The notes under the pieces: model-generated
Database searches by the model: none
Seen by the model: the letters and a program-made list of their open reading frames with translations, nothing else
Told to the model about the DNA's origin: nothing
Position numbers and translations under genes: made by a program
Shown here: piece after piece, positions 1-16,703 of the stretch
Position numbering within the stretch: position 1 is the stretch's first letter
Layout of the letters: each line of letters begins with the position of its first letter
Assembly (NCBI GenBank): GCA_963707025.1
Contig: CAVPOM010000014.1
Coordinates: 1-64,000 of the forward strand
Source of the DNA: an uncultured Verrucomicrobiae bacterium
GTDB lineage: Bacteria; Verrucomicrobiota; Verrucomicrobiia; Limisphaerales; Palsa-1400
Direction of reading: 5' to 3'
DNA: 64,000 nt

Positions 1-13
1 CCCCTCTCCGCCA
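1..13 (+). tRNA. 3' end of a tRNA, probably tRNA-Ser (rest lies outside the window); forms attL of the island
   Basis: Window begins CCCCTCTCCGCCA, i.e. acceptor strand CCTCTCC, discriminator G and CCA, typical of tRNA-Ser. Only 13 nt are visible. Confidence 0.6.
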
Positions 14-1501
14 GTTTGAGATTTCGGGATTTTCGCCGCAAGCGGCGATGTTTGACAGCGAGGCGGAATTGAATTCCGCCACGATTTTCCAAGGGTTTTT
101 CAACTCGACCGACAACCGTTTCTCCGCCAACTGAAAGTTCGAACCGATTTTTCTGAGAAAATCGCGCTTTTTCTCCGGGTTTCCTTCCGCGAGCAAAATA
201 GTGGCGTCTTTAGCCTCCTTTACGAACGCAATAGCCGGTTCGAACCGATTGCGGCGGTTGTCTTCAAACGCTGCCAAACTGCCCTTCAATTCGGCCTTGC
301 GGTTGAGCAGGATGTGTTTCTTTGAAACATACTCCTGCTCCCCGATCTGCTCGGAGAGGCGCATATCGAGGAGAATATCTATCTTCTTCTCGCATTGCGC
401 CAAGTCCGCCTTCGTCCGCTCAATGGCCGCTGCCTGTGCCGTGGCGGCCTCTTGCCGCGTCTTTTCAAGTTCGGCCACCATCAAATCGGCAATGGCGGCT
501 TCCAGGGCCACCTTGCCGATTTCCCGGTCAACCTGCTCGGCGATGGTTTCCTCCCGCACGTATCTTTGCGTGCAGGCGGAAACCCGCTTGGTGCAGCGGA
601 GATAGTTGTGGCCTTTTTGGGTCTCGGTCGTGATGAAACAGCCGCACTCGCCGCATGTGAAGACCCCGCGATACAGATACGGCTTCAAGGTGCTCGTTTT
701 GGGCTTGCTCTTCCGCTCCATGACCGCCTGGACCTCGTCAAACAGGCGCTTGGAAATGATGGGGTCGTGCTTGCCCTCGTAAAGCTCGCCGTTAAAAAAC
801 ATCAGGCCGCAGAAAAAAGGATTCTTGAACGTGTGCTGGAAATTGGATGTGGACATGATCTTGTCGCTGCATGAAAGAAGACCGAGCCCGTTTATCCTCC
901 GGCGCACTTCATGCAGGGGATATTGGCCGGTCGCATACAACTCGAACGCCTTGCGGACAAGCGGGGCCTTCCTGGGGTCAACCACGATTGACCGGGTGTT
1001 GCGGTCGTTCACGTATCCGACCGGCGGGCGGTTCGGCCAAATGCCGTTCCTGAGTTTTTGGCGCAGACCCCGGCGGATGTTCTCGGAGAGATTGTCCACG
1101 TAGTATTTGCTCTGACAAAAGGCGATATTCAGCATGAATTTGCCGTGCGCCGTCGCCTCAAAATGGAACGTGGGGAAGCGCAAGTCCTGGATTTTGCCGA
1201 TGTCCACCAGATACACGATTCTGCCACCGTCAACGCTGTTCCGGGCCAGCCGGTCGGGGTGCCACGCGAGAATCCCCTGGGCCTTGCCTTTTTCAATCTC
1301 GGCGAGCATCAAATTGAATTGCGGCCGCCCTGGGCTTTTGGCCGTGCGGCTCTCCTCGAAGACCTTGAGCACGGTCAAACCCTCGCGTTTGGCGTATTCG
1401 TGCAACTCGAAAAGCTGCGCCTGAATCGAGAGAATCTGCCGGTCGCTCTCGTCGGTGGATTTGCGGACATATATGAAAAATGGTTTGGATTGCGTTGTCA
1501 T
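1..1501 (-). CDS. Large serine recombinase/integrase (resolvase, recombinase, Zn-ribbon and coiled-coil domains); 3' end runs off the window into the antisense of the tRNA
   Basis: Translated by hand (absent from the ORF track because there is no stop in the window): MTTQSKPFFIYVRKSTDESDRQILSIQAQ...PGRPQF...DRLARN...CGECGC...YLRC...ISNWRRG. Catalytic YxRxS and DRLAR motifs are present. Confidence 0.95.
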   Translation of the reverse strand, partial: MTTQSKPFFIYVRKSTDESDRQILSIQAQLFELHEYAKREGLTVLKVFEESRTAKSPGRPQFNLMLAEIEKGKAQGILAWHPDRLARNSVDGGRIVYLVDIGKIQDLRFPTFHFEATAHGKFMLNIAFCQSKYYVDNLSENIRRGLRQKLRNGIWPNRPPVGYVNDRNTRSIVVDPRKAPLVRKAFELYATGQYPLHEVRRRINGLGLLSCSDKIMSTSNFQHTFKNPFFCGLMFFNGELYEGKHDPIISKRLFDEVQAVMERKSKPKTSTLKPYLYRGVFTCGECGCFITTETQKGHNYLRCTKRVSACTQRYVREETIAEQVDREIGKVALEAAIADLMVAELEKTRQEAATAQAAAIERTKADLAQCEKKIDILLDMRLSEQIGEQEYVSKKHILLNRKAELKGSLAAFEDNRRNRFEPAIAFVKEAKDATILLAEGNPEKKRDFLRKIGSNFQLAEKRLSVELKNPWKIVAEFNSASLSNIAACGENPEISNWRRG

Positions 1502-1535
1502 AGAAATATCATATCACCAATACATGAGCGGTCAA
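1502..1535 (-). promoter_or_regulatory. Sigma70-like, probably leaderless promoter of the integrase
   Basis: Minus strand reads TTGACC-N16-TATGAT-N6-ATG, with TG one base upstream of the -10 (extended -10). An inverted repeat ATCACCAA (1513-1520) / TTGGTGAT (1543-1550) overlaps it. Confidence 0.6.
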
Positions 1536-1629
1536 GAAACTTTTGGTGATTCATGTGATTTCCCTAAAATGCCGTGTCGCGTCCATGAAATACTTGAACT
1601 TTCGAAAGGTAACGGATATGGTTTGCGAT

Positions 1630-2829
1630 ATGCCAAACGGAGCAATAGCGACATCGGCAAAGTGCTCGATTCGAGTTTTTGTGAGTCATGCGGAAAGCGA
1701 TGGTGATCTCGTGGATTCATTTGTGGAACTCCTCCGTTCTGCGATGGACATACGCCATGAAGAAATTCGCTGCACCAGCGTAGATGGCTATCGGCTTCCG
1801 ACCGGCACAGAAATTGACCCTCAATTGAGAGATGAAATCGTGGGCGCGAAGGTATTTGCCGCGCTTTTGACGCCCACAAGCCTTCAATCAGAATATGTCT
1901 GGTTTGAGTTGGGGGCACGATGGGGCCACGGGGCAAGCCTCCTGTCGTTGCTGGCAATGGGCGCAGAACCATCCTCGTTATGCGGTCCACTGAAAGGATT
2001 CGCAGCTAGAAAATCAGCGTCAGGGGAGATATACCAATTCCTTGGTGACGTTGCGCGTGAATTGGGTCTGCAATTGCACGATCCCCATGTATATCAAAAG
2101 CAATTTAAAGTTTTTGAGGCAGCGGCCAATCCCGACGTAGCTACACATAAAAGGAGCAATGCAGCTTTGTCCGACTATACGGCACGCGACATCTGTTTGG
2201 AACTTCGAGAAGCTCCTCCGTTAGAAAGAACGATGCGGGCAAAGCGATTCATCGGGTGCCATGTTGACTGGGATGTCCATTTTCGGAATGCGCACTTGGA
2301 AAAGGAGATGAACCCGACGGTTTCAGCTTCATTCATACCCTGGGAGGACGAGGGATTTGATACCGCAATCGAGTGCGATCTCAATTTAAAATTATACCCC
2401 GAGTTGAAAACAGCAAACGAGGGTGCGCTCTTCCGACTAACAGGTTACATCGAATCGGCCACAGATTGGATCATCAAATTGGTTTCTGTAAAACTATTTC
2501 CAATCAAGGACATTGGAGGAACACGAGTCCGATGCTTGCTTCAAGCGGTTTCGCGCGAATTGGGGGACCCGCTTTGTAACTCCGTTTCTAATCGGGCGAT
2601 TGAAGCAAGCATTCGAGCGCAATTAAATAGCGGCAGAGTCGAAGGCCTAACACTCACTGATGACAAGACTATACATCCGAGGATTGATCCTAAATCAAAG
2701 CACTACAAACTTTTGGTGCTAAAAACATGTAAGCATCTTATCGAGTCAAATCCCGCTGTCGCCCAAAATGTGAGCGCCAAATTGGCTTCGCTAGAAATTG
2801 AGATATACAATTTGGATAATTACGATTGA
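1630..2829 (+). CDS. TIR-domain protein with a possible central OB-fold-like region and an unknown C-terminus (candidate defence protein)
   Basis: IRVFVSHAESD...LLTPTSLQSEYVWFELGARWG is a TIR_2-like motif with the catalytic Glu. The ATG at 1630 is preferred over the TTG at 1543. Confidence 0.8.
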   Translation: MPNGAIATSAKCSIRVFVSHAESDGDLVDSFVELLRSAMDIRHEEIRCTSVDGYRLPTGTEIDPQLRDEIVGAKVFAALLTPTSLQSEYVWFELGARWGHGASLLSLLAMGAEPSSLCGPLKGFAARKSASGEIYQFLGDVARELGLQLHDPHVYQKQFKVFEAAANPDVATHKRSNAALSDYTARDICLELREAPPLERTMRAKRFIGCHVDWDVHFRNAHLEKEMNPTVSASFIPWEDEGFDTAIECDLNLKLYPELKTANEGALFRLTGYIESATDWIIKLVSVKLFPIKDIGGTRVRCLLQAVSRELGDPLCNSVSNRAIEASIRAQLNSGRVEGLTLTDDKTIHPRIDPKSKHYKLLVLKTCKHLIESNPAVAQNVSAKLASLEIEIYNLDNYD

Positions 2830-2871
2830 ACTCGAAAGCATAATGCCCAATGTGGAATGATTGGTTCAGCA

Positions 2872-3045
2872 TTATCTTGACCTTTTCCGCCGTGCTAGGA
2901 CTGCGTCCCGTGCGATTTGTGAACGGCGTTCAGGGGACAGCTTCGCTGCCCGCGCCCTGCCGCCTTTCAAACCACCCAGCCTTCCCAGGGCCACCGCTGC
3001 CGGATTTTTCCCCTTAACCGTTTTCTTTGATGATTTTTTAGGCAT
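2872..3045 (-). CDS. Small basic protein of the KNPAAVALGRLGGLKGG family
   Basis: MPKKSSKKTVKGKNPAAVALGRLGGLKGGRARAAKLSPERRSQIAR; I recall this motif from mobile-element-associated small proteins. Confidence 0.7.
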   Translation of the reverse strand: MPKKSSKKTVKGKNPAAVALGRLGGLKGGRARAAKLSPERRSQIARDAVLARRKRSR

Positions 3046-3147
3046 GACTGAATGCTGCCATTGTACCACGGGATTGCGAGCGGAAATTATTGGTCAAAAC
3101 TATGTGTGACAGCCGGTGAGGCTGACGAATATGTGAATATAAACGTG

Positions 3148-3544
3148 CTTTCAGTTGGCGGAGAAACGGTTGTCGGTCGAGTTGAAAAACCCTTGGAAAA
3201 TCGTGGCGGAATTCAATTCCGCCTCGCTGTCAAACATCGCCGCTTGCGGCGAAAATCCCGAAATCTCAAACTGGCGGTGTCTTTTAATCAAAGTTCGACA
3301 ATTCTTTGATCAAAATCCCGCTGTGTAGGGTATCCCCACACCTATCCCCGCAGCGGGGATACCCCCTGCTGGCGCAAACCCCTTGCTGAACAAGGGTTTT
3401 GTCGGTGTTCGGTCGTCTGGCGACCCTCCCGACTTCGGTCGGTTTACGCCTGCTCACGCAGGCTTCGGCTGCGCGCGGCCTCGGAGGCCGTGCTCGCCGA
3501 AAACCTCCCTCATCGCTCACGCGAAACACGGGTTCACCGACGGA
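3148..3544 (-). repeat. Internal inverted copy of the island's attP junction (397 bp)
   Basis: 3148-3277 is the reverse complement of 8-137 (130 bp) and 3272-3544 is the reverse complement of 5555-5827 (273 bp). The two overlap at the TGGCGG core. I saw no mismatches by eye. Confidence 0.95.
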
Positions 3545-3667
3545 ACTGTTAAGAATTTGGTGTCAACAATGCTTCTTCTATACATCCGCCATGCGGCGGA
3601 TGAATGCGTTTTCCGATCAACACCCCCTTTGGAAGTTTGTGCAGGGACATAATATACTTGTCAGCAA

Positions 3668-3925
3668 ATGCTTAGGGCAATTCGTAAAAATGATGGTGAG
3701 ACGGTGGAGGCGTGGAGCCAGAGAGAATCCTCCGGGCCTTTTGCGTGTCCCTGCTGTGGGGGCGAAGTCATCCTGCGCGGCGGGAGACGCCGCCTTGACC
3801 ATTTCGCGCATGTGGCGGAAATGAAATGCCCGCATGACCTCGGCGAAAGCGAGAATCACCGCCGCTGCAAGGCGGAGATTTGGGTCTGTCTTGCGGATGC
3901 CCCGCATGATAATCGAAGCCTTTGA
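3668..3925 (+). pseudogene. Truncated CoiA-like protein (N-terminal Zn-binding part only)
   Basis: FACPCCGGEVILRGG...HFAH...GESENH motif; ends after 85 aa with no nuclease domain. Confidence 0.65.
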
Positions 3926-4126
3926 CTATTCGGCCTCGGCGGGGAAGCTGCCTTTTCGGCGGCTTTTTCCGTCTCGGATGACCTGCGTGCCTTTCTGGCC
4001 GGCTTTGATGCCGTTGCGGTAGCTCTCCAAGACTTTCTCGGAAACCCAGCGGACGATGTCCTCGCCGGTTTCGCTGCTTGTGAGCTTTCGGGCAAGCTCT
4101 TGCTCGAATTCGCTGATGTAGCTCAT
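3926..4126 (-). CDS. Small hypothetical protein (66 aa)
   Basis: MSYISEFEQELARKLTSSETGEDIVRWVSEKVLESYRNGIKAGQKG; helical, protein-like composition; lies downstream of a long hairpin. Confidence 0.7.
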   Translation of the reverse strand: MSYISEFEQELARKLTSSETGEDIVRWVSEKVLESYRNGIKAGQKGTQVIRDGKSRRKGSFPAEAE

Positions 4127-4175
4127 GTGAGTTTGATGTTGGCTGATAATGCTCGACCGTGCGTGGCGGCCCGGA

Positions 4176-4309
4176 GCCGCCTCGCCCTCTCGGAATGGCC
4201 GTCCGAAGTCAAGGCGTAGTTCGAGCGCGGTGGAACGACTTCGACCGGGGAGCGAAGCGGGGGCTGGAACGACCTTGACCGGACGGTACAATGAAGAGAG
4301 GGCGGCGGC
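4176..4309 (-). promoter_or_regulatory. Long imperfect hairpin resembling an Frpo/ssi-type single-stranded-DNA promoter
   Basis: Nested arms: GCCGCCTCGCCCTCTC / GAGAGGGCGGCGGC and CCGTCCG-AA-GTCAAGG / CCTTGAC-CGGACGG. A TTGAC (-35-like) motif lies inside the stem. Confidence 0.5.
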
Positions 4310-4425
4310 GAACGTGCCTGGAAAGGGGGGGCGGCCAGGGGAGTATGAGGCTTTTGTGGATTTGAACGCTTGCATTCTTGCGGTTTGCGGATACCCTGCT
4401 TCGGGTTTGGCGTATTCTCGCGCAC

Positions 4426-5010
4426 ATGAATCCTGAGCGCTTCATCTACATAGATGCTCCCGGTATTGCGTCCCTCTATGCCCAGATCAACGGGCAAGAC
4501 GTGGTTGAGACACTTCTCACTATGGAGGACAGTAGGACTTCAGGTTGGAAGATGGCTTTGAGCGCTTTCCTCGGAGGTTCGGGCGAGTCGAACAAAGCGA
4601 TCAAGGAGGTGAAAGCCACAAAGATTCTCCTGAGGCCAGAAAATATGGTCCGTGAAATTGTAATGAATCTGCGCGCCGTCGGCACCCTCCATTTCTCAGT
4701 CGCGGATGCAATCGCGAGGACATCCAGCACGCACGAGCCTGCGTGGTTCGAGGCGCGACATCCTTTCTCGGTGCCGCCGCAGTTAGACCAGTTCGAGAAG
4801 ATGGGCGCGGTTGTTTTCGTCTCCAGTTCGCAGATTTCTATGTGGGCGAGCATTCATAATTTTCCGACCGCGCAGGGTGGGCAGATACCAATTCACGATG
4901 TTGAGCTTTTCCGCCGACTGGCAGGTCGCCCCTGTTCGTATTTGGTATTCGGGTCTATTTATTCAAACGGCGATGGATTCCAAGTTAAGCCTTTTGCCAT
5001 CCATCTTTAG
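4426..5010 (+). CDS. Hypothetical protein (N-terminus loosely DUF6414-like)
   Basis: MNPERFIYIDAPGIASLYAQING; 194-aa ORF with TATTCT 7 nt upstream of the ATG. Confidence 0.65.
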   Translation: MNPERFIYIDAPGIASLYAQINGQDVVETLLTMEDSRTSGWKMALSAFLGGSGESNKAIKEVKATKILLRPENMVREIVMNLRAVGTLHFSVADAIARTSSTHEPAWFEARHPFSVPPQLDQFEKMGAVVFVSSSQISMWASIHNFPTAQGGQIPIHDVELFRRLAGRPCSYLVFGSIYSNGDGFQVKPFAIHL

Positions 5011-5133
5011 TGTTACACCCGCCGGTACAAGCGCAACCACTCCGTTAGCCGTTCGCCTTGCATAAGCCCGTCCGAGGGCGGGAGGTGAGTGGCGGCACAC
5101 CTGCCGGCAGTGTCCGCCCGCCAGAAGTCAAAA

Positions 5134-5468
5134 GCCGGCCAAAGTCTTCGGGTTTTGAGACGGAGGGCGCCGGGATAGGGGTGCGCCCGTAGGCCAAAAG
5201 CTCGCAAGTCTTTGGATCGGCAACCCGTTGAAACCCGTCTCCCAAAACCCGTGTCAACGCCTGCCGCAGTCTCCGATGTTGTGAATCGGAAGGCGCCGGG
5301 GGCAAGGGGGTGTGCCTGGAGCAAACAAGCTCGGAGTCTGCGGCAGGACGTGTTTCCCCGCGACAAAGTCTTGGGATGCTGTGAGCCGGAAGGGGGTCCC
5401 GACGAACGGGTTAAAAGGGGGTGAGGAGGGACTTCGCACGGCGAACAAGCTCTCAAGTCTTTGGCGCT
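5134..5468. ncRNA. Candidate structured ncRNA or ssDNA element: three tandem long hairpins with a shared motif
   Basis: Modules at about 5134-5221, 5258-5350 and 5359-5467. Each reads AGTCT...TGANNCGGARGG...AAGCTC..AGTCT, with different but complementary stems. No credible ORF in the region. Confidence 0.55.
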
Positions 5469-5554
5469 CCCGCGATAGCGGGTCCCATACCCGTTTAACC
5501 TGTTCAAACCCGTGTTCACCCAAAAGGACAATGATGTCCTTTATCGTAAACCCG

Positions 5555-5827
5555 TCCGTCGGTGAACCCGTGTTTCGCGTGAGCGATGAGGGAGGTTTTC
5601 GGCGAGCACGGCCTCCGAGGCCGCGCGCAGCCGAAGCCTGCGTGAGCAGGCGTAAACCGACCGAAGTCGGGAGGGTCGCCAGACGACCGAACACCGACAA
5701 AACCCTTGTTCAGCAAGGGGTTTGCGCCAGCAGGGGGTATCCCCGCTGCGGGGATAGGTGTGGGGATACCCTACACAGCGGGATTTTGATCAAAGAATTG
5801 TCGAACTTTGATTAAAAGACACCGCCA
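5555..5827 (+). repeat. Right arm/attR of the island, hairpin-rich, duplicated in inverted orientation at 3272-3544
   Basis: Direct sequence comparison; ends AAAAGACA-CCGCCA, followed by host sequence ACCCTGCC. Confidence 0.9.
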
Positions 5828-5845
5828 ACCCTGCCGCCGCCCTGT

Positions 5846-6595
5846 TCAGCGGCCTTCGACATTGAGGAGCTTGGTGTGCTTCTTCAGGCCCCGCAAGACG
5901 GCGAAGATGAGGAAGCCTGCGATGAAAACAGCAAACCAGGCCCATTTTCCGGCATCCATCTGCCAGTTGTTTTCGGCGATGGAGTCCCCGATGAGGTCAA
6001 ATAGAAAAAACACTGAAATAATCAGAAAGAAGGCGTTGTATTCGCGTTGCGCCACCGTCCGCCAGCAGAAAGCGACGGGCGAGGGCTTCCAGCCGTGGAG
6101 TCTGGGAATGAAGGCGGGAGTTGCGGCGGCCCATTTTTCAAAAGTATCGCCGAAGCGCTCGCGCAAAAAGGCCTCTTCGGCCAGCATGATCCGCTCGTAA
6201 TAAAGCGCGTAGAAACAGGTCGTCAGAACCATCAGCCACCAGGTATGCGGCCACAGGGCGAAACCGCTCACGATGAGGTAATTGCCCAGATAGAGGGGAT
6301 GGCGCACGACGGAATAAATCCCGGTGGTGTTCAACGTATTGGCCACCTGTTGGCGCGTGTTCCGCCCGGAGGTGCCAATCGGGGCGCGTCCCACCGTGAT
6401 GATGCGCACCGCCAGCCCCAGGAAGGAGATGCCCAGGCAAACGCCCTGCCAGATTTCGTTGAGGCAATGGCTTTGCCCCAGGTAGGTGAAGGTGCAGAGG
6501 CAGGGCAGAAAAACCGCGAGAAGCGCCAGGGGCAGATAGCTGCGATGGCGGAAAAGCCACGCTCCGGATTGTTCCAGCTCAGTGCGCAAAGACAT
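5846..6595 (-). CDS. Isoprenylcysteine/phospholipid methyltransferase family protein, similar to lipid A phosphate methyltransferase (LmtA-like)
   Basis: WLFRHRSYLPL...TSGRNTRQQVANTLNTTGIYSVVRHPLYLGN...EEAFLRERFG; multiple transmembrane helices. Confidence 0.8.
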   Translation of the reverse strand: MSLRTELEQSGAWLFRHRSYLPLALLAVFLPCLCTFTYLGQSHCLNEIWQGVCLGISFLGLAVRIITVGRAPIGTSGRNTRQQVANTLNTTGIYSVVRHPLYLGNYLIVSGFALWPHTWWLMVLTTCFYALYYERIMLAEEAFLRERFGDTFEKWAAATPAFIPRLHGWKPSPVAFCWRTVAQREYNAFFLIISVFFLFDLIGDSIAENNWQMDAGKWAWFAVFIAGFLIFAVLRGLKKHTKLLNVEGR

Positions 6596-6695
6596 CGCCA
6601 CGAGGATAATTGCTTTGTGCCCGACCGACAAGCGGCTTATGCGATTCCCCATTTTCCGGCGTGCCAGGGCGCGCGCCGGCGCGTAAGTTAAGCCG

Positions 6696-8129
6696 ATGAA
6701 TTTCGTGCCGCCAGAACTGGACCGCATTCTCCGCCAGACGCCGGAGTTGGGCCAAGCCTGGCTGGTGGGCGGTTGTGTGCGGGATGGCTTGCTCGGTTGT
6801 CCCGGCATGGATTTCGACGTGGAGGTCTTCGGGATCGGCTGCGAAACGCTGGCGCGGGCCCTGGCGCGCTGGGGAAAAGTGGATCTGGTCGGGCAGTCCT
6901 TTGGGGTGGTCAAACTGACGACGGACGGGGAGCACCGCTATGATTTCACCGTTCCGCGAAGGGACTCGAAAAGGGCGGCCGGCCACAAAGGCTTCGCGGT
7001 GGAATTGGACCCGGCCATCACGCCCGCGCAGGCGGCGGCGCGGCGCGATTTCACCATCAATTCGCTCATGTTCGATCCGCGCACGGGGGAGCTGCTGGAC
7101 TTTTTTGGCGGCGCGGCGGATTTGCAGGCAAGAATACTGCGCCACACCAGCCCGGCTTTTGTGGAGGACCCGTTGCGCGTGCTGCGCGGCATGCAGTTGG
7201 CCGCGCGTTTCAATCTGCAACCCGCCGGCGAAACGGTCGAACTGTGCCGCCGGATCAAAGGCGGTTTCAGCGAACTGGCCGGCCAGCGCGTGCGCGATGA
7301 GTGGTTTAAGTGGGCGGAAAAAAGCGCGGCGCCGTCCGCCGGATTGAAGTTTCTGGCCGCCACCGGATGGGTGGAGCACTTCCCGGAAATCCAGGCCTTG
7401 CTCGGCACGGCGCAGGACCCGGAATGGCATCCGGAAGGCGATGTCTTCGTCCACACCGGCCACTGTTGCGACGCCATGGCCCGGCTGCCGGAGTGGCAGT
7501 CGGCCACTCCGGAGGCGCGCGCGGTCTATATGCTGGCGATTCTGGCCCACGACTTTGGCAAGCCGGCCACCACGCACGCCGCGGTGAAGGATGGCCGGAG
7601 CCGGATTGTTTCGCCGGGGCACGACGCGCTGGGCGGGAAGCTGGCGCAAAAGTTTCTGGAGCGGATTCACGCGCCCCCGGCCATCCAGGCCAGGGTCGTG
7701 CCCTTGGTGGTCAACCATATTATCCACTTTCCGAGCATGACCGACCGCGCCCTGCGCCGGCTGGCCAAACGGCTGGAACCGGAGAACATCCAGGGTTTGT
7801 GCCTGGTGATGACCGCCGACGCCATGGGCCGCCCGCCGCGGCCGGTGGCGGAGCCGGAGAACGTGCCGCGGCTGCTGGCGCGGGCTCGCGCATTGCAGGT
7901 CCAGGAAAAGCCGCCCGCACCCATCCTCATGGGGCGGCATTTGCTGGAGCTGGGACTGTCCCCCGGCAGAGACTTCGGCGTGATTCTGCATCGCGCTTAC
8001 GAAGCGCAATTGGAAGGGCTGTTTTTCGATTTGACGCACGCCTGGGCATGGCTGCGGCAGCAGGGCGATCTGCCGCTGAGCCTGGGCGTCCGGCGGGAGT
8101 TGGAAGTGCGCGCCCGCCGGGAAGGGTAG
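6696..8129 (+). CDS. cca: CCA-adding tRNA nucleotidyltransferase with HD domain
   Basis: LVGGCVRD, DFDVEV, RRDFTINS, EDPLRVLR, WHPEGDVFVHT and AHDFGK motifs. Confidence 0.88.
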   Translation: MNFVPPELDRILRQTPELGQAWLVGGCVRDGLLGCPGMDFDVEVFGIGCETLARALARWGKVDLVGQSFGVVKLTTDGEHRYDFTVPRRDSKRAAGHKGFAVELDPAITPAQAAARRDFTINSLMFDPRTGELLDFFGGAADLQARILRHTSPAFVEDPLRVLRGMQLAARFNLQPAGETVELCRRIKGGFSELAGQRVRDEWFKWAEKSAAPSAGLKFLAATGWVEHFPEIQALLGTAQDPEWHPEGDVFVHTGHCCDAMARLPEWQSATPEARAVYMLAILAHDFGKPATTHAAVKDGRSRIVSPGHDALGGKLAQKFLERIHAPPAIQARVVPLVVNHIIHFPSMTDRALRRLAKRLEPENIQGLCLVMTADAMGRPPRPVAEPENVPRLLARARALQVQEKPPAPILMGRHLLELGLSPGRDFGVILHRAYEAQLEGLFFDLTHAWAWLRQQGDLPLSLGVRRELEVRARREG

Positions 8130-9107: not shown

Positions 9108-10577
9108 ATGACCTCGACCTACTCATCCGATTCGTCCCGCGCCGGATTATCCCGCCGCACCTTCATTTTTTTGTCCGCCATGGCGGCCGGCGGTCTGGCC
9201 GCGGGCGGGTGCGCCTCTCCCCGGCCCCGGCCCCGCCTGGTCTCCGCCAACGCCAAGCTCAACATTGCCATCGTCGGCTACGGCGGCAAGGGCGCGGGCG
9301 ACGCCGCCTGCTGTTCGGGCGAAAACATTGTCGCCCTCTGCGACGCCGATGAGAAGATCGGGGACCGCGTGCGCGCCGCGCACCCCAAGGCGGCCTACTA
9401 CCAGGACTTCCGGCAAATGCTGGACAAGGAGAAGTCCCTGGATGCCCTCGACATCGCCACGCCCGACCATTTGCATGCCTGTATCGCCGCGGCGGCCATG
9501 AACCTGGGCAAACACGTCTATGTCCAGAAACCGCTGACCCACTCCGTTTACGAGGCCCGGCTGCTGCGCAAGCTGGCCGCCAAAAACAAAGTGGCCACGC
9601 AAATGGGCAATCAGGGCAGTGCCGAGAACGGCTTGCGCCGCGCCGTGGAAGTCATTCAAGCCGGCCTCATCGGCCAAGTCCATGATGTCCATGTCTGGAC
9701 CAACCGCCCCATTTGGCCGCAGGGCCTGGAACGGCCCGAAGGCTCGGATCCTGTGCCGGCCGGCTTGAATTGGGATGTGTGGCTCGGCCCCGCCCCCGTG
9801 CGGCCCTTCAAAGGCAACCGGACCTATCACACCTTCAATTGGCGCGGACGGATTGATTTCGGCACCGGCGCCCTGGGCGACATGGCCTGCCACACCTGCA
9901 ACCTGCCCTTCCGCGCCCTCAAACTGGGCTACCCCTCCGAAATCGAAGCCGAAACGGTGGATCTGACCAAGGACTGCTACCCGATCAAATCCAAAATCCG
10001 ATTCCAATTCCCGGCGCGGGAAGGCTTGGCGCCGGTCACCTTCCGCTGGTACGACGGAGGCAACCGCACCCAGAACGCCAGACGCGGCGGAGGATCTCAC
10101 GACGGCAACAACAAACCTCCCACCGAGGCCACGGCCGACATCTTGACCATCCCCATCTTTGACCAGATTCCCAACAGCGGCTGTTTAATGCTGGGCGACA
10201 AGGGCCAAATCTTTTCGCCCGACGACTACGGGACCACGTTCTACCTCAAGTTAAAGGATGAGAACAAATTCAGCCGGGGAGCAACCCATCCGGCCGTCAA
10301 AGCGGTCGCACAAACCATTCCACGCAACCCTTTCATGGCCGACAACAACAGTGATGCGGCGCAACATCTGGAGTGGATCGCCGCCTGCAAAGGAGGCAAG
10401 CCGGGGTATTCCAATTTCGACATCGCCGCCTATCTCACCGAGATCATGCTCCTGGGGTGCGTCGCCATGCGCGCCGGCAAGAAACTCGAATGGGACGGGC
10501 CCAACATGCGCGCCAAGAACGCCCCCGCAGCCTCCCAATTCGTCCACCCGGCCTTCCGCAAAGGATGGCTGATTTGA
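9108..10577 (+). CDS. Tat-exported Gfo/Idh/MocA oxidoreductase
   Basis: SRRTF signal; IATPDHLH, HVYVQKPLTH and GALGDMACH motifs. Confidence 0.92.
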   Translation: MTSTYSSDSSRAGLSRRTFIFLSAMAAGGLAAGGCASPRPRPRLVSANAKLNIAIVGYGGKGAGDAACCSGENIVALCDADEKIGDRVRAAHPKAAYYQDFRQMLDKEKSLDALDIATPDHLHACIAAAAMNLGKHVYVQKPLTHSVYEARLLRKLAAKNKVATQMGNQGSAENGLRRAVEVIQAGLIGQVHDVHVWTNRPIWPQGLERPEGSDPVPAGLNWDVWLGPAPVRPFKGNRTYHTFNWRGRIDFGTGALGDMACHTCNLPFRALKLGYPSEIEAETVDLTKDCYPIKSKIRFQFPAREGLAPVTFRWYDGGNRTQNARRGGGSHDGNNKPPTEATADILTIPIFDQIPNSGCLMLGDKGQIFSPDDYGTTFYLKLKDENKFSRGATHPAVKAVAQTIPRNPFMADNNSDAAQHLEWIAACKGGKPGYSNFDIAAYLTEIMLLGCVAMRAGKKLEWDGPNMRAKNAPAASQFVHPAFRKGWLI

Positions 10578-10606
10578 CAACCCACAAACCACACCAAGAA
10601 AAGAAT

Positions 10607-11458
10607 ATGTCTCCGTTCACCAGACGCGAATTCATCGGCGCCGCCACCGTCGGCGCCGCCGCCCTCATGGCCGGACCCGCCAACCTCCTCGCCGCGGCGC
10701 GCAAGAAATTGCCCGTCGGGGTCCAGCTTTACTCCGTGCGCAACGACTTTTCCAAAGACGTGCCCGGCGTCCTGGCCGGGATCAAAAAAATCGGCTACGA
10801 GGGCGTTGAGTTTGCCGGTTACGCCAATTACGGCAACAATGCCGCCGGCTTGCGAAAACTGCTGGACGACAATGGCCTCAAAGCCGCCGGCTCCCACATC
10901 CAGGGTGGTCTGCCCACCCTCCAGGGAGACGGCTTCGCCCGGGAGACCGAATTCAACAAAGTCCTGGGCAACGACCGGCTCATCATCGCCAGCGGCAACG
11001 CCAGGACGATTGATGACTGGACCCGGTTTGCCGACAGCTTCAGCGCGCTCGCCGAAAAACTCAAGCCCCTCCACATGCGCATCGGCTATCACAACCACAC
11101 CGGCGAGTTCACCCCGGTGGACGGCCAGATTCCCGAATTCATTTTCTTTGACAAGGCCAGCCCCGACGTTTTCGTCCAGCTTGACATCGGCCACTGCGCC
11201 CACGGGGGCGGCGATCCCGTCGCTGTCATCAACAAATACAGCAGCCGCCTGGTCAGCGTCCATGTCAAGGATTGGGAACCCGCCACCCGCGGCGACATCG
11301 TGGGCGAAGGCATCGTCAAATGGCCCGAAGTGCTGGCGGCCTGCGCCGGCGCGCCCAACCTGCAGTGGTACAATATCGAAGAGGAAAGCGGCAAGTTCCC
11401 CGGCTTGGAAGGCATTGACAAGGACTTCAAGAACTTCACCAAAATGTTCGAAGCCTGA
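10607..11458 (+). CDS. Tat-exported sugar phosphate isomerase/epimerase (xylose isomerase-like TIM barrel)
   Basis: TRREF signal; GVQLYSVR, GYHNH, QLDIGH and HVKD motifs. Confidence 0.9.
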   Translation: MSPFTRREFIGAATVGAAALMAGPANLLAAARKKLPVGVQLYSVRNDFSKDVPGVLAGIKKIGYEGVEFAGYANYGNNAAGLRKLLDDNGLKAAGSHIQGGLPTLQGDGFARETEFNKVLGNDRLIIASGNARTIDDWTRFADSFSALAEKLKPLHMRIGYHNHTGEFTPVDGQIPEFIFFDKASPDVFVQLDIGHCAHGGGDPVAVINKYSSRLVSVHVKDWEPATRGDIVGEGIVKWPEVLAACAGAPNLQWYNIEEESGKFPGLEGIDKDFKNFTKMFEA

Positions 11459-11478
11459 ATCCTGTCCAGAACACAGGC

Positions 11479-13497
11479 GTGATTTTCGAAAGCCGGCCAA
11501 CGCCCCGGCCAAAGGATTGGCTGTGGGGCCTGCTTTTGCTGGCCGCCACCCTCCTGGCCTATCAGCCTGTCTGGCGCGCCGGCTTCATCTGGGATGATGA
11601 CGCCCATCTGACCAGCCCGGCGCTCCGTTCCTGGAGCGGCTTGGAGCAAATCTGGACAAAACTTGGGGCCACCCCGCAGTACTATCCGCTGGTTCACACT
11701 GTTTTTTGGATCGAGCACCGGTTTTGGGGCGAGGCCCCGCTGGGGTATCATTTGCTCAACGTTCTGCTCCATTTCTTTTCGGCGCTGTTGCTGGCGCGGG
11801 TGCTCCGGCGATTGGAGCTGCCCGGCGCCTGGCTGGCCGCGGCCCTCTTTGCCCTCCATCCCGTGCAGGTCGAATCGGTGGCATGGATCACCGAATTGAA
11901 GAACACGCTCTCGGGCCTTTGCTGCCTGGCTAGCGCCCTGGCCTACCTGCGCTTTGACCGGGAGAGGAAGCGGCTCTTTTACCTGCTCTCGCTGGGGCTG
12001 TTCGCGGCGGGACTGTTCGCCAAAACGGTCATCGCCACCATGCCGGCCGCCTTGCTCCTGCTGTTTTGCTGGCGGCGGAAAAAGTTGCGCTGGAAGGAGG
12101 AGGTGGCACCGCTGGCCCCGTTTTTCATCGCCGGCATTGCCCTGGGGTTGTTGACCGCATGGGTGGAGCGAACTCAGGTCATTCTCACCGCGGCATCCGC
12201 GTCGCACTTGTCCTTCATGCAACGCTGTCTGCTCCCCGGTCGCGCCCTCTGGTTTTACCTGGCAAAGCTGATTTGGCCGCACCCGCTGATTTTTATCTAT
12301 CCGCGCTGGGAGGTCAGCGGGGCCGTCTGGTGGCAGTTTCTCTTTCCGGCGGCGGCGCTGGCGCTGGCGGCGGCGCTCTGGCGCTGGAGGCGCGCTCTGG
12401 GCGGCGGGCCCCTGGTCGCGCTGCTCTTTTTCGCCGGGACCCTCTTTCCGGCGCTGGGGTTTTTTGATGTCTATCCCTTTCGCTATTCTTTTGTGGCCGA
12501 CCATTTTCAATACCTGGCCTGCCTCGGGCCGCTGGCGCTGGCGGCGGCCGGCCTGGAGCGCGGGTTGGGCTGGTTGACAAAACAAGTTCCTGTGCTGCAG
12601 GCCGTCTTTTGCGCCGCGTTGCTGACGGCGCTCGGCGCCTTGACCTGGCATCAATGCGGGATGTATGCCGGCCCGGAAACACTCTGGCGCGCCACCATCG
12701 CCCGCAATCCGGGCTGCTGGCTGGCCCACAACAACCTGGGCGCGCTCTGCGTCCAAAAAGGGGAGGTGGCGCAAGGCGTGGCGCAATTCCGGCAGGCTCT
12801 GGCCATCAAGCCCGGCGAGGCAGAAGCGCACTTCAATCTCGCCATGGCCCTGGCCATAAAGGGAGACGCGGAGGAAGCCATCGCCCAATTCCGCCAGGCC
12901 CTGGCCATCAAGCCCGGCTCTGCCGAAGCCCGCTATAATCTGGGCCTTGTTCTGGCGCGCAAGGGAGAATTGAAGGAAGCCATCGCCCAATACCGCCAGG
13001 CCCTGGCCATCAAGCCCGCTTTTGCCGAAGCGCACTACGACTTGGGCCTCGCTTTGGCCCGGAGCGGCAAGCTCGACGACGCCATTGCCCAATACCGCGG
13101 CGCTTTGCAATTCAAGCCTGATTATGTCGAAGCCCTCAACAACCTGGGCATTGCGCTCGTCCAGAAAAAAGACTTGGAGGAAGCCGTCGCCCAATTCCGG
13201 CAGGCCCTTGCCCTTCAGCCGGGCCAGGCCCAAGCCCACTACAATCTGGGCACCGCTCTGGCACTGAAGGGAGAAGAGGGGGAAGCCGTCGCCCAATTCC
13301 AGCAAGCGGTTGCCATCAAGCCCGACTATGCCGAAGCCCACTTCAACCTGGGCGTCGCCCTGGCTTCGATGGGTCAAACGGACCAAGCCATCGCCCAATA
13401 CCGCCGGGCCTTGGAGATCAAGCCCGACTACGAGGAAGCCCGCCGGCGCCTTGCTGCATTGCCTTCAAGTCCAACAGCGCGGCCATCAAAGCAATAA
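11479..13497 (+). CDS. TMTC-like membrane glycosyltransferase with C-terminal TPR repeats
   Basis: FIWDD, LFALHPVQVESVAWITE and VADHFQY in a multi-TM N-terminus, followed by 34-aa TPRs (AHNNLG, AHFNLG). Confidence 0.88.
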   Translation: MIFESRPTPRPKDWLWGLLLLAATLLAYQPVWRAGFIWDDDAHLTSPALRSWSGLEQIWTKLGATPQYYPLVHTVFWIEHRFWGEAPLGYHLLNVLLHFFSALLLARVLRRLELPGAWLAAALFALHPVQVESVAWITELKNTLSGLCCLASALAYLRFDRERKRLFYLLSLGLFAAGLFAKTVIATMPAALLLLFCWRRKKLRWKEEVAPLAPFFIAGIALGLLTAWVERTQVILTAASASHLSFMQRCLLPGRALWFYLAKLIWPHPLIFIYPRWEVSGAVWWQFLFPAAALALAAALWRWRRALGGGPLVALLFFAGTLFPALGFFDVYPFRYSFVADHFQYLACLGPLALAAAGLERGLGWLTKQVPVLQAVFCAALLTALGALTWHQCGMYAGPETLWRATIARNPGCWLAHNNLGALCVQKGEVAQGVAQFRQALAIKPGEAEAHFNLAMALAIKGDAEEAIAQFRQALAIKPGSAEARYNLGLVLARKGELKEAIAQYRQALAIKPAFAEAHYDLGLALARSGKLDDAIAQYRGALQFKPDYVEALNNLGIALVQKKDLEEAVAQFRQALALQPGQAQAHYNLGTALALKGEEGEAVAQFQQAVAIKPDYAEAHFNLGVALASMGQTDQAIAQYRRALEIKPDYEEARRRLAALPSSPTARPSKQ

Positions 13498-15944: not shown

Positions 15945-16703
15945 ATGAATGCCCCCAAACCAATTCCGCCCCGCTGGTCGCGCGGGCGCTTTTGGCTGAT
16001 GGTCGCGGTCTTGTTTGCCGGACAAGCTGGCTGGGTTATGCTCCTGGGGGAGCGCCCGCGTCCCGCGCCCGTTCCCGCGCCGCCCCGCTTGGGGCTGCGC
16101 CTGTTGGACACCCCTTTGGACAACGAGAGGTGGACGAAACATGTTTTCGCCGGAGATCCCACGGTGTTCCCGTCCTCCGCTCCCTACGGATTCGCCGATC
16201 AGGCCTGGCGGCGCCTGCGCACCAATGATTACGCCGCTCCTCTGGAGGAACCTGCGCCGGTTTTTTTGGACTTTGCCGCCCCATGGTCCGGCGCAGACCT
16301 CAATCCCTCAAGCCTGGAGCCGCACCCGACTCCCTTCCCGTTGGCCGGACTGGCCAACTCGTCCCCCTCCGGCCGTCCCCCTTTTGGGACGGAGCAAGCC
16401 AGCCTCCCGGAATCCTTTCTCCGCATGGAAGGCGCGTTGGCGGAACGCCTGCTGGGTCCGCCGGTGGTTTTGCCGTCCTGGACCACTAATTTTTTAGTGA
16501 CCAATTCGGTGGTTCGCTTTGCCGTTAATCGCGCCGGTCAGGTCGTTTCGGCGGTCTTGCTGGCCGGTTCCGGCCTCAAGACGGCGGACGATTCCGCCCT
16601 GGCGGCCGTCAATGTCCTGCGCTTTCGCCCGGTGGGGAAAAGCGCCCCGGAACGGGCCTGGGACACGGCCGTCTTTTACTGGAAAACCATCCCGCCGCCA
16701 TGA
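15945..16703 (+). CDS. TonB C-terminal domain protein
   Basis: TM anchor, Pro-rich linker, VRFAVNRAGQV...GSGLKTADDSAL; lies in the exbBD operon. Confidence 0.75.
   Translation: MNAPKPIPPRWSRGRFWLMVAVLFAGQAGWVMLLGERPRPAPVPAPPRLGLRLLDTPLDNERWTKHVFAGDPTVFPSSAPYGFADQAWRRLRTNDYAAPLEEPAPVFLDFAAPWSGADLNPSSLEPHPTPFPLAGLANSSPSGRPPFGTEQASLPESFLRMEGALAERLLGPPVVLPSWTTNFLVTNSVVRFAVNRAGQVVSAVLLAGSGLKTADDSALAAVNVLRFRPVGKSAPERAWDTAVFYWKTIPPP

What the first reader, a model, noticed from the sequence alone, without database searches (positions are those of the whole stretch)
8..5827. Serine-integrase island carrying a complete inverted internal copy of its own attP junction
Seen: 3148-3544 is the reverse complement of the island's right end (5555-5827) joined to its left end (8-137) through the CCGCCA core. 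That is exactly the junction that excision would create. Inference: the excised 5814-bp circle would hold two 397-bp inverted repeats separating unique arms of 3010 bp (integrase, TIR) and 2010 bp (hairpin arrays), a layout like the yeast 2-micron plasmid. It would have two usable attP sites, and in the integrated state each arm would be independently invertible. I know of no described LSR element built this way. No Rep or relaxase gene is present, so it may be a satellite.
Basis: partly seen in the sequence, partly recalled or inferred. Interest (0 to 1): 0.88.

Follow-up and report, generated by a model that had tools for sequence, protein, structure and literature searches.

The report
tRNA-inserting element with mirrored docking site
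This is a real 5.8-kb mobile element, one of a widespread family I did not find described, that inserts at the tip of tRNA genes and keeps a mirror-image second copy of its own docking site, possibly so that a single DNA strand can fold back into a usable insertion site.

Summary
Observation exact: 3148-3544 is the reverse complement of the joined island ends (397 of 397 nt). It is no accident or chimera. The island sits in a tRNA-Ser 3' end, and attP lies inside the 3' end of a canonical large serine integrase gene. 61 of 74 assessable related loci carry the inverted copy, each matching its own element (median 99%) better than its nearest relative (84%; 60 of 66). Free 2-micron-like flipping is poorly supported: 113 integrases face the tRNA against 4 flipped. 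Family integrase genes hold 1124 long self-complementary stems against 50 expected, nested, with DNA-type hairpin loops. Best reading (0.45): the element travels as a folded single strand in which the two copies pair into one duplex attP. This Verrucomicrobiota copy keeps both repeats but folds only weakly, and 6 of 11 assessable members of its clade lack the copy. No activity was shown. The scan found this family before on other DNA (39 findings; folding too); eight paper searches showed no description.

The parts
1..13 (+). 3' end of a tRNA-Ser gene cut by the contig start; attL core at 8-13
   Evidence: relatives abut whole tRNA-Ser/Gln genes at the same place
8..137 (+). Repeat A (one attP arm); on the minus strand it codes the last ~43 integrase codons before the crossover
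2..1501 (-). Large serine integrase, 500 aa to the contig end, no stop before the tRNA (integrated-form tail comes from the tRNA antisense)
   Evidence: model of relative L007 matches serine integrase structures
137..250 (.). Two copies (137-149, 238-250) of a palindromic T-loop-like motif 101 bp apart; repeat A ends at the first
   Evidence: same 101-bp spacing in L004, L006, L008, L009, L011, L017; A ends within 5 nt of the motif start in 45 of 103 elements
1543..2829 (+). Cargo: N-terminal TIR-domain protein, SpbK/ThsB-like, probable anti-phage gene (start codon uncertain)
   Evidence: replaced by 948 other letters in a relative's contig (X2 record 9)
2872..3045 (-). Small basic protein of a large unnamed family, next to the internal attP in this sub-lineage
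3148..3544 (-). Internal inverted attP: A' 3148-3277, core 3272-3277, B' 3272-3544
3272..3328 (+). Coding sequence of the attP-form integrase tail (18 codons and stop) inside B'
   Evidence: ORF 3155-3328; L007 ends in the homologous tail; helix 497-510 in the model
3668..3925 (+). Fragment: CoiA-type N-terminal zinc-finger domain only
   Evidence: PF25164, E 2e-13
3926..4126 (-). Small hypothetical ORF (66 aa from the likely ATG)
   Evidence: no family hit
4140..4340 (.). Long non-coding hairpin
   Evidence: DNA fold z -2.9, 0 of 200 shuffles as good
4378..5010 (+). Hypothetical protein (likely start 4426), weak DUF6414 likeness below cut-off
   Evidence: E 0.04
5040..5554 (.). Hairpin array next to the right end, partly shared with L006 and L188
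   Evidence: DNA fold z -4.6
5555..5827 (+). Repeat B (other attP arm, multi-hairpin) with T-loop-like motif at 5801-5805 and attR core at 5822-5827
   Evidence: fold z -6.4, measured on the internal copy; same end and core at the same locus in G405

Best explanation
A replication-less cargo element (TIR defence gene here; often restriction-modification in relatives) inserted by a canonical large serine integrase at the 3' end of tRNA genes. The enzyme reads the tRNA T-loop as its attB distal motif. attP lies in the integrase gene, so insertion swaps the native tail for a tRNA-antisense tail. The second, inverted attP exists because the mobile form is, or ancestrally was, a folded single DNA strand: the two copies pair into one 250-600 bp duplex that carries a complete attP, with integrase and cargo as loops. 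Pairing or copying in that form keeps the copies identical. SHOWN: layout, family-wide conservation, homogenisation, att-site geometry, excess nested stems, fixed orientation. INFERRED: a single-stranded phase, its entry route (natural transformation is the simplest), integrase action on the folded stem, and resolution by replication. In this copy's clade the single-strand constraint looks relaxed.
For: Inverted copy in 61 of 74 assessable loci, 5 more degenerate, including long-contig and single-contig genomes (L017, L058, G023). Own A/A' median 99% against 84% to the nearest relative, 60 of 66. T-loop-like motif 5 bp further from the core in attP than in attB in 20 of 20 measurable elements, the offset reported for LI integrase (PMC3783163, passages). 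1124 perfect inverted matches of 11 nt or more in 142 integrase genes against 49.6 from synonymous-codon shuffles; 71 host ORFs 28 against 20.4. Only 100 of 5453 stem pairs cross, and positions recur, one in 77 genes. 27 of 261 consensus pairs show two Watson-Crick types. A repeats hold 81 C(GNA)G/C(TNC)G triloops in 12.2 kb against 41 in 656 kb of host DNA, and no UUCG. No G-T excess on the mRNA strand. Cargo ORFs also show an excess, 90 against 31.4 in 53. Both arms keep one orientation. Saccharibacteria are naturally competent and comEC-dependent (PMC10633639, passages).
Against: No single-stranded or circular form was observed; only assembled contigs could be laid. The window's own integrase has 0 stems of 11 nt and no significant k-mer excess (k=8: 19 against 13.7, 17 of 200 shuffles reach it). 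Its folding z was -2.5 in the matched test (host genes -1.2 to +0.3), -4.3/-6.4 with 10 shuffles, but -0.8/-1.3 on 900 nt with a shorter span, where one host gene reached -2.8. The weak residual excess is the same in clade members with and without the internal copy. One CPR clade keeps the copy with almost no fold (GGIPP group). Six of the 8 loci lacking any copy are in the window's clade, so it is dispensable there. Serine integrases cut both strands (established knowledge), so acting on a dumbbell would cap the chromosome with hairpins and need a further resolution step. Hairpins inside A and B compete with A:A' pairing. Kin are not independent, and the consensus pairs were derived from the same sequences.
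Confidence: 0.45

Rival explanations
1. Double-stranded switch. The internal attP is a spare site. attL x internal attP inversion, or insertion through the second attP, gives an integrase with its native tail driven from the tRNA side (on); facing the tRNA with the antisense tail is a stable off state. Inversion and gene conversion homogenise the repeats.
For: L118 is a natural flipped form: tRNA, a distinct A variant, leader, integrase, native tail. L038, L103 and L158 have the integrase between two inverted tRNAs. The tail models as a helix at pLDDT about 79. An off-state sink would also give 113 to 4.
Against: Does not explain nested stems across the coding sequence and cargo, DNA-type triloops, or why 100-430 nt of B is duplicated when an att arm needs about 25 bp. 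The tail's conserved residues coincide with the DNA motif of the attP arm, so they need no protein role. The flipped loci are short-read contigs.
Confidence: 0.25
2. RNA-level control. The leader copy A' and the stems fold the integrase mRNA, or a tRNA read-through RNA, to silence or destabilise it.
For: A' lies within about 350 nt upstream of the start codon in 102 of 109 loci; leader pieces are complementary to the ribosome-binding region and 5' coding sequence in L013-L015; the B copy in the window has UUCG-type loops by eye.
Against: No G-U preference: G-T 537 against A-C 519 at consensus pairs, and A-C 528 against G-T 301 beside stems on the sense strand, uncorrected for composition. No UUCG/GNRA enrichment in A or B across the family. 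Cargo genes are affected too. In the window A' is 1647 nt from the start codon and beyond a divergent gene. No Rfam match.
Confidence: 0.12
3. By-product. Each mobilisation regenerates the inverted copy through fold-back synthesis or template switching, with no benefit of its own.
For: Identity near 100% within elements; variable B length, 101-433 nt; repeated loss in the window's clade; L160 has a 2071-nt terminal inversion.
Against: The A boundary is fixed at one of two positions in 82 of 103 elements, and the leader flanking A' is inherited between relatives. The stems need selection in any case.
Confidence: 0.1
4. One reading: a duplex circle amplifies or diversifies by attP x attP flipping as a satellite of a helper.
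For: Same topology. Intramolecular attP x attP recombination is reported for LI, A118 and CcrA/B (PMC3783163, passages). A relative's contig joins the right end to A, as a circle would (X3 record 19).
Against: Orientation of both arms is strongly biased; no origin, Rep, partition or packaging gene; no shared cargo-arm gene in more than 5 of 34 elements; no match in plasmids. The X3 junction also fits a single-attP circle or a tandem array.
Confidence: 0.06
5. Assembly chimera or one-off accident.
For: The island starts at a contig end; no run spanned it; short-read assemblers can collapse near-identical repeats and inflate identity.
Against: Same design in dozens of unrelated assemblies with element-specific sequences, in long-contig and single-contig genomes, and an independent peat contig ends 30 nt inside A at both ends of arm 1 (X2 record 9).
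Confidence: 0.02

Closest known systems
Large serine integrase elements (A118/LI, phiC31, Bxb1, SPbeta SprA; SCCmec Ccr)
   Same: Domain set and fold; short core; distal motif 5 bp further out in attP than attB (PMC3783163 passages); attL/attR layout.
   Different: Second inverted attP of 250-600 bp kept identical; attP inside the integrase gene; tRNA T-loop as recognition motif; no directionality factor identified; self-pairing coding strand.
Integron attC cassettes and CTXphi attP (folded single-strand substrates)
   Same: Works-like analogy: a recombination site formed by fold-back of one strand, resolved by replication (integrons: abstract openings of PMC6393395 and PMC4792948 in listing; CTXphi recalled).
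   Different: Those use tyrosine recombinases and short hairpins with one strand exchange; here a serine enzyme and two long repeats kilobases apart. The analogy is inferred, not shown.
SSV-type archaeal 'suicidal' integrases
   Same: Attachment site lies within the integrase gene, which is altered on insertion (PMC7253208, abstract opening in listing); tRNA targets (recalled).
   Different: Tyrosine family; here only about 18 terminal codons are swapped and a spare copy of the end is carried.
Yeast 2-micron plasmid (recalled)
   Same: Circle with two long inverted repeats holding a recombination site and two unique arms.
   Different: No Rep1/Rep2, STB or origin found; integrative; arms not randomised.
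Tycheposons and phage satellites (PICI)
   Same: Small tRNA-targeting cargo/defence elements; 27 of 937 tycheposon-type elements use a serine recombinase (bioRxiv 2020.12.28.424599, passages).
   Different: Those are flanked by direct partial-tRNA repeats and many carry replication or packaging genes; none found here; no internal inverted att site in the passages seen.

Membership tests
Large serine integrase element | Catalytic, recombinase, zinc-ribbon and coiled-coil domains | tested here: met
   PF00239, PF07508, PF13408 above cut-off; invariant S15 and four Cys; model of L007 hits integrase structures, E 6e-18
Large serine integrase element | Short shared core at attL and attR with no long target duplication | tested here: met
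   6-nt core here; 4-8 nt in 25 of 27 reconstructed elements; same right junction in G405
Large serine integrase element | Distal motif 5 bp further from the crossover in attP than attB | tested here: met
   20 of 20 measurable among 24 tRNA-linked elements; one arm only, the other arm shows no clear motif
Large serine integrase element | attP x attB recombination; excision needs a directionality factor | not testable with these tools
2-micron-type plasmid | Two long inverted repeats with recombinase sites | tested here: met
   (in the predicted circle)
2-micron-type plasmid | Both isomers common | tested here: not met
   113 to 4 for arm 1; 26 to 8 for arm 2; integrated copies only
2-micron-type plasmid | Origin and partition genes | tested here: not met
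   No such family in island ORFs or 96 cargo ORFs; a cis origin was not tested
Phage satellite / tycheposon | Replication or packaging-hijack genes | tested here: not met
   PHROGs was not searched
Phage satellite / tycheposon | Dependence on a helper | not testable with these tools
   2 relatives in viral contigs, none close in phage or plasmid collections
Integron / CTXphi-type single-strand recombination | Tyrosine recombinase | tested here: not met
   Serine family; not a member
Integron / CTXphi-type single-strand recombination | Site formed by fold-back of one strand | tested here: inconclusive
   Family-wide sequence signature, weak in this copy; no physical evidence

The most novel reading that the evidence does not exclude
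A new class of mobile element that needs no replication, transfer or packaging gene: it moves as naked single-stranded DNA whose sequence, coding regions included, has evolved to fold, and whose two inverted attP copies anneal into the duplex site on which a serine integrase acts. This would be the first serine recombinase system using a fold-back single-strand substrate, and it has spread from Patescibacteria into Elusimicrobiota and Verrucomicrobiota.
Probability: 0.4. Interest if true: 0.94.

Novelty: new variant of a known kind. Interest (0 to 1): 0.8.

Why it matters
The family is large (at least 599 and 601 relatives in two capped scans) and carries restriction-modification and other defence cargo in Patescibacteria, whose routes of gene exchange are poorly known. 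It shows a design rule absent from the serine integrase systems I could find. If the fold-back model holds, serine integrases can act on single-stranded donors and an element can spread by transformation alone; that is directly testable and of use in genome engineering, since the enzyme targets a universal tRNA motif. The repeats also explain why many assemblies break just upstream of these genes. This copy matters as a natural contrast: same repeats, non-CPR host, weak fold, sister elements without the copy.

Tried and rejected
Rfam on 1-7000: 2 chance-level hits. Raw reads: none offered; best run held 0.23 of the words, no run spans the island, so isomers, circles and empty site of this genome stay untested. 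G-T versus A-C bias among repeat mismatches: none. Single-sequence structure model: pLDDT 43, unusable. DNA motif scan for B-type ends: 1 genome locus (the G405 end again), 0 viral. Plasmids: no match; phages: 2 records at 26%. Earlier notes on look-alike places: none; two word searches on folding returned no full match. A comEC gene is in G000, but 10 of 14 controls have one, so it says little. Tandem insertion plus one chance inversion was my first guess and is rejected by the family survey. Paper searches showed no description in their listings; subscription papers are outside the library, and I read no supplements, where att-site tables of large recombinase surveys could hold members.
Full report
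OBSERVATION. The two repeats are exact: 8-137 with 3148-3277 (130 nt) and 3272-3544 with 5555-5827 (273 nt), overlapping in a 6-nt core. The internal 397 nt equal the reverse complement of the joined ends, and the predicted circle is 5814 bp. The window is the start of contig C14 of an 18-contig genome. It begins in a tRNA-Ser 3' end; two other contigs end in tRNA-Ser bodies, and I could not tell which one joins. The integrase frame (1501 to the contig start, 500 aa) has no stop before the tRNA. So attP lies within the last codons of the gene. The internal copy encodes the alternative 18-residue tail, which relative L007 has at its natural end.

PARTS. Integrase with Resolvase, Recombinase and zinc-ribbon domains; a model of L007 on a 53-sequence alignment (mean pLDDT 79) matches solved serine integrases. 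Arm 1 also holds a TIR protein (SpbK/ThsB-like) and a small basic protein of an unnamed family. Arm 2 holds a CoiA N-terminal fragment, two hypothetical ORFs and hairpin regions (DNA fold z -2.9 and -4.6; B itself -6.4). A same-genus genome has a related right end and core beside the same host gene; another has only a degenerate tRNA end there.

A FAMILY DESIGN. Of 175 loci with the window, 109 have an exact inverted match of 25 nt or more upstream, 33 lack the gene's 3' end, 20 end within 600 nt upstream and 13 have none at that threshold. Among the 74 with the 3' end and at least 600 nt upstream: 61 have the copy, 5 a degenerate one, 8 none. A few loci are the same element in two collections. 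In 103 non-identical elements A is mostly 120 or 133-134 nt, and 34 also show B (101-433 nt). Nine of 10 more distant loci from the window's phylum have A repeats of 87-506 nt, one in a single-contig genome. Each element's two A copies match each other (median 99%) better than the nearest relative (84%) in 60 of 66 cases (68 elements qualified, 2 near-identical ones dropped). Repeat collapse in short-read assemblies may inflate this. Independent peat contigs show arm 1 ending 30 nt inside A at both ends with other cargo, both B junctions, and a right end joined to A; these are contigs of relatives, and none spans the island.

ATT-SITE LOGIC. In 27 reconstructed elements the shared core is mostly C-C/A-G-C at the tRNA end, and the element often supplies the rest of the CCA. 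A T-loop-like motif sits 5 bp further from the core in attP than the real T-loop in the tRNA in 20 of 20 measurable cases. That is the offset described for the zinc-ribbon motif of LI integrase (PMC3783163, passages). It explains targeting of several tRNAs and of T-arm-like secondary sites, as in tandem arrays. It also means the conserved tail residues may reflect the DNA motif.

ORIENTATION. The integrase faces the tRNA in 113 loci, has a tRNA only upstream in 4, lies between two inverted tRNAs in 3, has the native tail without a tRNA in 5, and 50 are undetermined. L118 is a clear flipped form with two different A variants; three of the 4 lack the 3' end. So the leader-side attP can be used, but rarely or unstably. 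Cargo lies mainly on the tRNA-sense strand in 26 of 34 elements. Freely flipping arms would not give this without selection.

SELF-PAIRING. In 142 integrase genes (A excluded) there are 1124 perfect inverted matches of 11 nt or more against 49.6 from synonymous shuffles; 122 of 142 exceed mean plus 2 sd, against 10 of 71 host ORFs (28 against 20.4). The stems are nested (100 of 5453 pairs cross) and recur in position. 27 of 261 consensus pairs show two Watson-Crick types; G-T and A-C mismatches are equal among the 51 best-folded genes. A repeats are rich in C(GNA)G-type triloops and lack UUCG; that GNA triloops mark stable DNA hairpins is recalled, not looked up. Cargo ORFs show a smaller excess (90 against 31.4 in 53; not length-matched to the host control).

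AGAINST, FOR THIS COPY. The window's integrase has no stem of 11 nt, pairs at 37% of consensus positions against 26-30% for slid controls, and shows no significant k-mer excess. Energy tests gave z -2.5 (matched; four control genes -1.2 to +0.3), -4.3/-6.4 and -0.8/-1.3 (shorter). Its clade, nested among carriers of the copy, has 5 members with the copy and 6 without; 3 cannot be judged. Both groups keep a small excess of stems and local hairpins that 12 host genes lack. Arm 1 here carries cargo, whereas in most relatives it is the integrase alone. The constraint appears relaxed in this host group; higher G+C is a confounder.

MECHANISM. Best reading (0.45): a folded single-stranded mobile form in which the two copies pair into one duplex attP. 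It accounts together for the length and identity of both repeats, the nested DNA-type stems and the fixed orientation. Entry by natural transformation is plausible in Patescibacteria (PMC10633639, passages) but not shown. The open difficulty is chemical: double-strand exchange on a dumbbell leaves hairpin ends that replication and an attL x attR step must resolve. Rivals: a duplex on/off switch with tail swap (0.25), RNA control (0.12), by-product (0.10), 2-micron-like satellite (0.06; attP x attP is possible for some integrases, PMC3783163), artefact (0.02). The first two are not exclusive of the best reading.

KNOWN SYSTEMS. It is a member of the large serine integrase elements by enzyme and site geometry. 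It is not a 2-micron plasmid, integron or satellite by their defining genes; no Rep or relaxase family hit 96 cargo ORFs, many of which are restriction-modification genes (96 of 100 ORFs were given, the window's 4 having been scanned in part). Eight paper searches listed no description; I read passages of three papers, saw the rest as listings, and read no supplements. The scan has 39 earlier notes on the family, mostly from Patescibacteria; they are unchecked notes, and I scored on my own tests.

VERDICT. Real, family-wide and apparently undescribed; mechanism unproven. New variant of a known kind on what is shown, a new kind if the single-strand model holds. Interest 0.8.

Noticed in passing
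G000 C9:11615-16530: A second, distant large serine recombinase (22% identity) reads into the antisense of a 42-nt tRNA-Asn repeat; the same small basic protein lies at 16128-16280.
   Followed up: partly
G000 C2:125446-125958: N-terminal piece of a related recombinase (40% identity) on a contig with a tRNA array and long degenerate tandem repeats.
   Followed up: no
L160:1-2071 and 9496-11566: A 2071-nt terminal inverted repeat with the integrase, native tail inward, at both ends of a cargo arm; a fold-back product or an assembly path through a circle junction.
   Followed up: partly
L055:257-11597 and L126:1-11400: Arrays of two or three such elements, the later ones inserted at T-arm-like sites 170-190 nt past the previous right end; in L055 the 191-nt spacer is duplicated.
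   Followed up: partly
L038, L103, L158: Integrase arm between two inverted tRNA genes, as expected if the internal attP recombined with a second tRNA and rearranged the chromosome.
   Followed up: partly
L177, L178, L180, L181, L185: Members from other classes of the phylum with much longer A repeats (315-506 nt) and longer open frames.
   Followed up: no
G000 contig ends: Many contigs break inside tRNA genes, which suggests further tRNA-linked islands or strain variation.
   Followed up: no
P0001: The closest homologue of the small basic protein lies on a 5780-nt contig, near the predicted circle size; the contig could not be fetched.
   Followed up: no
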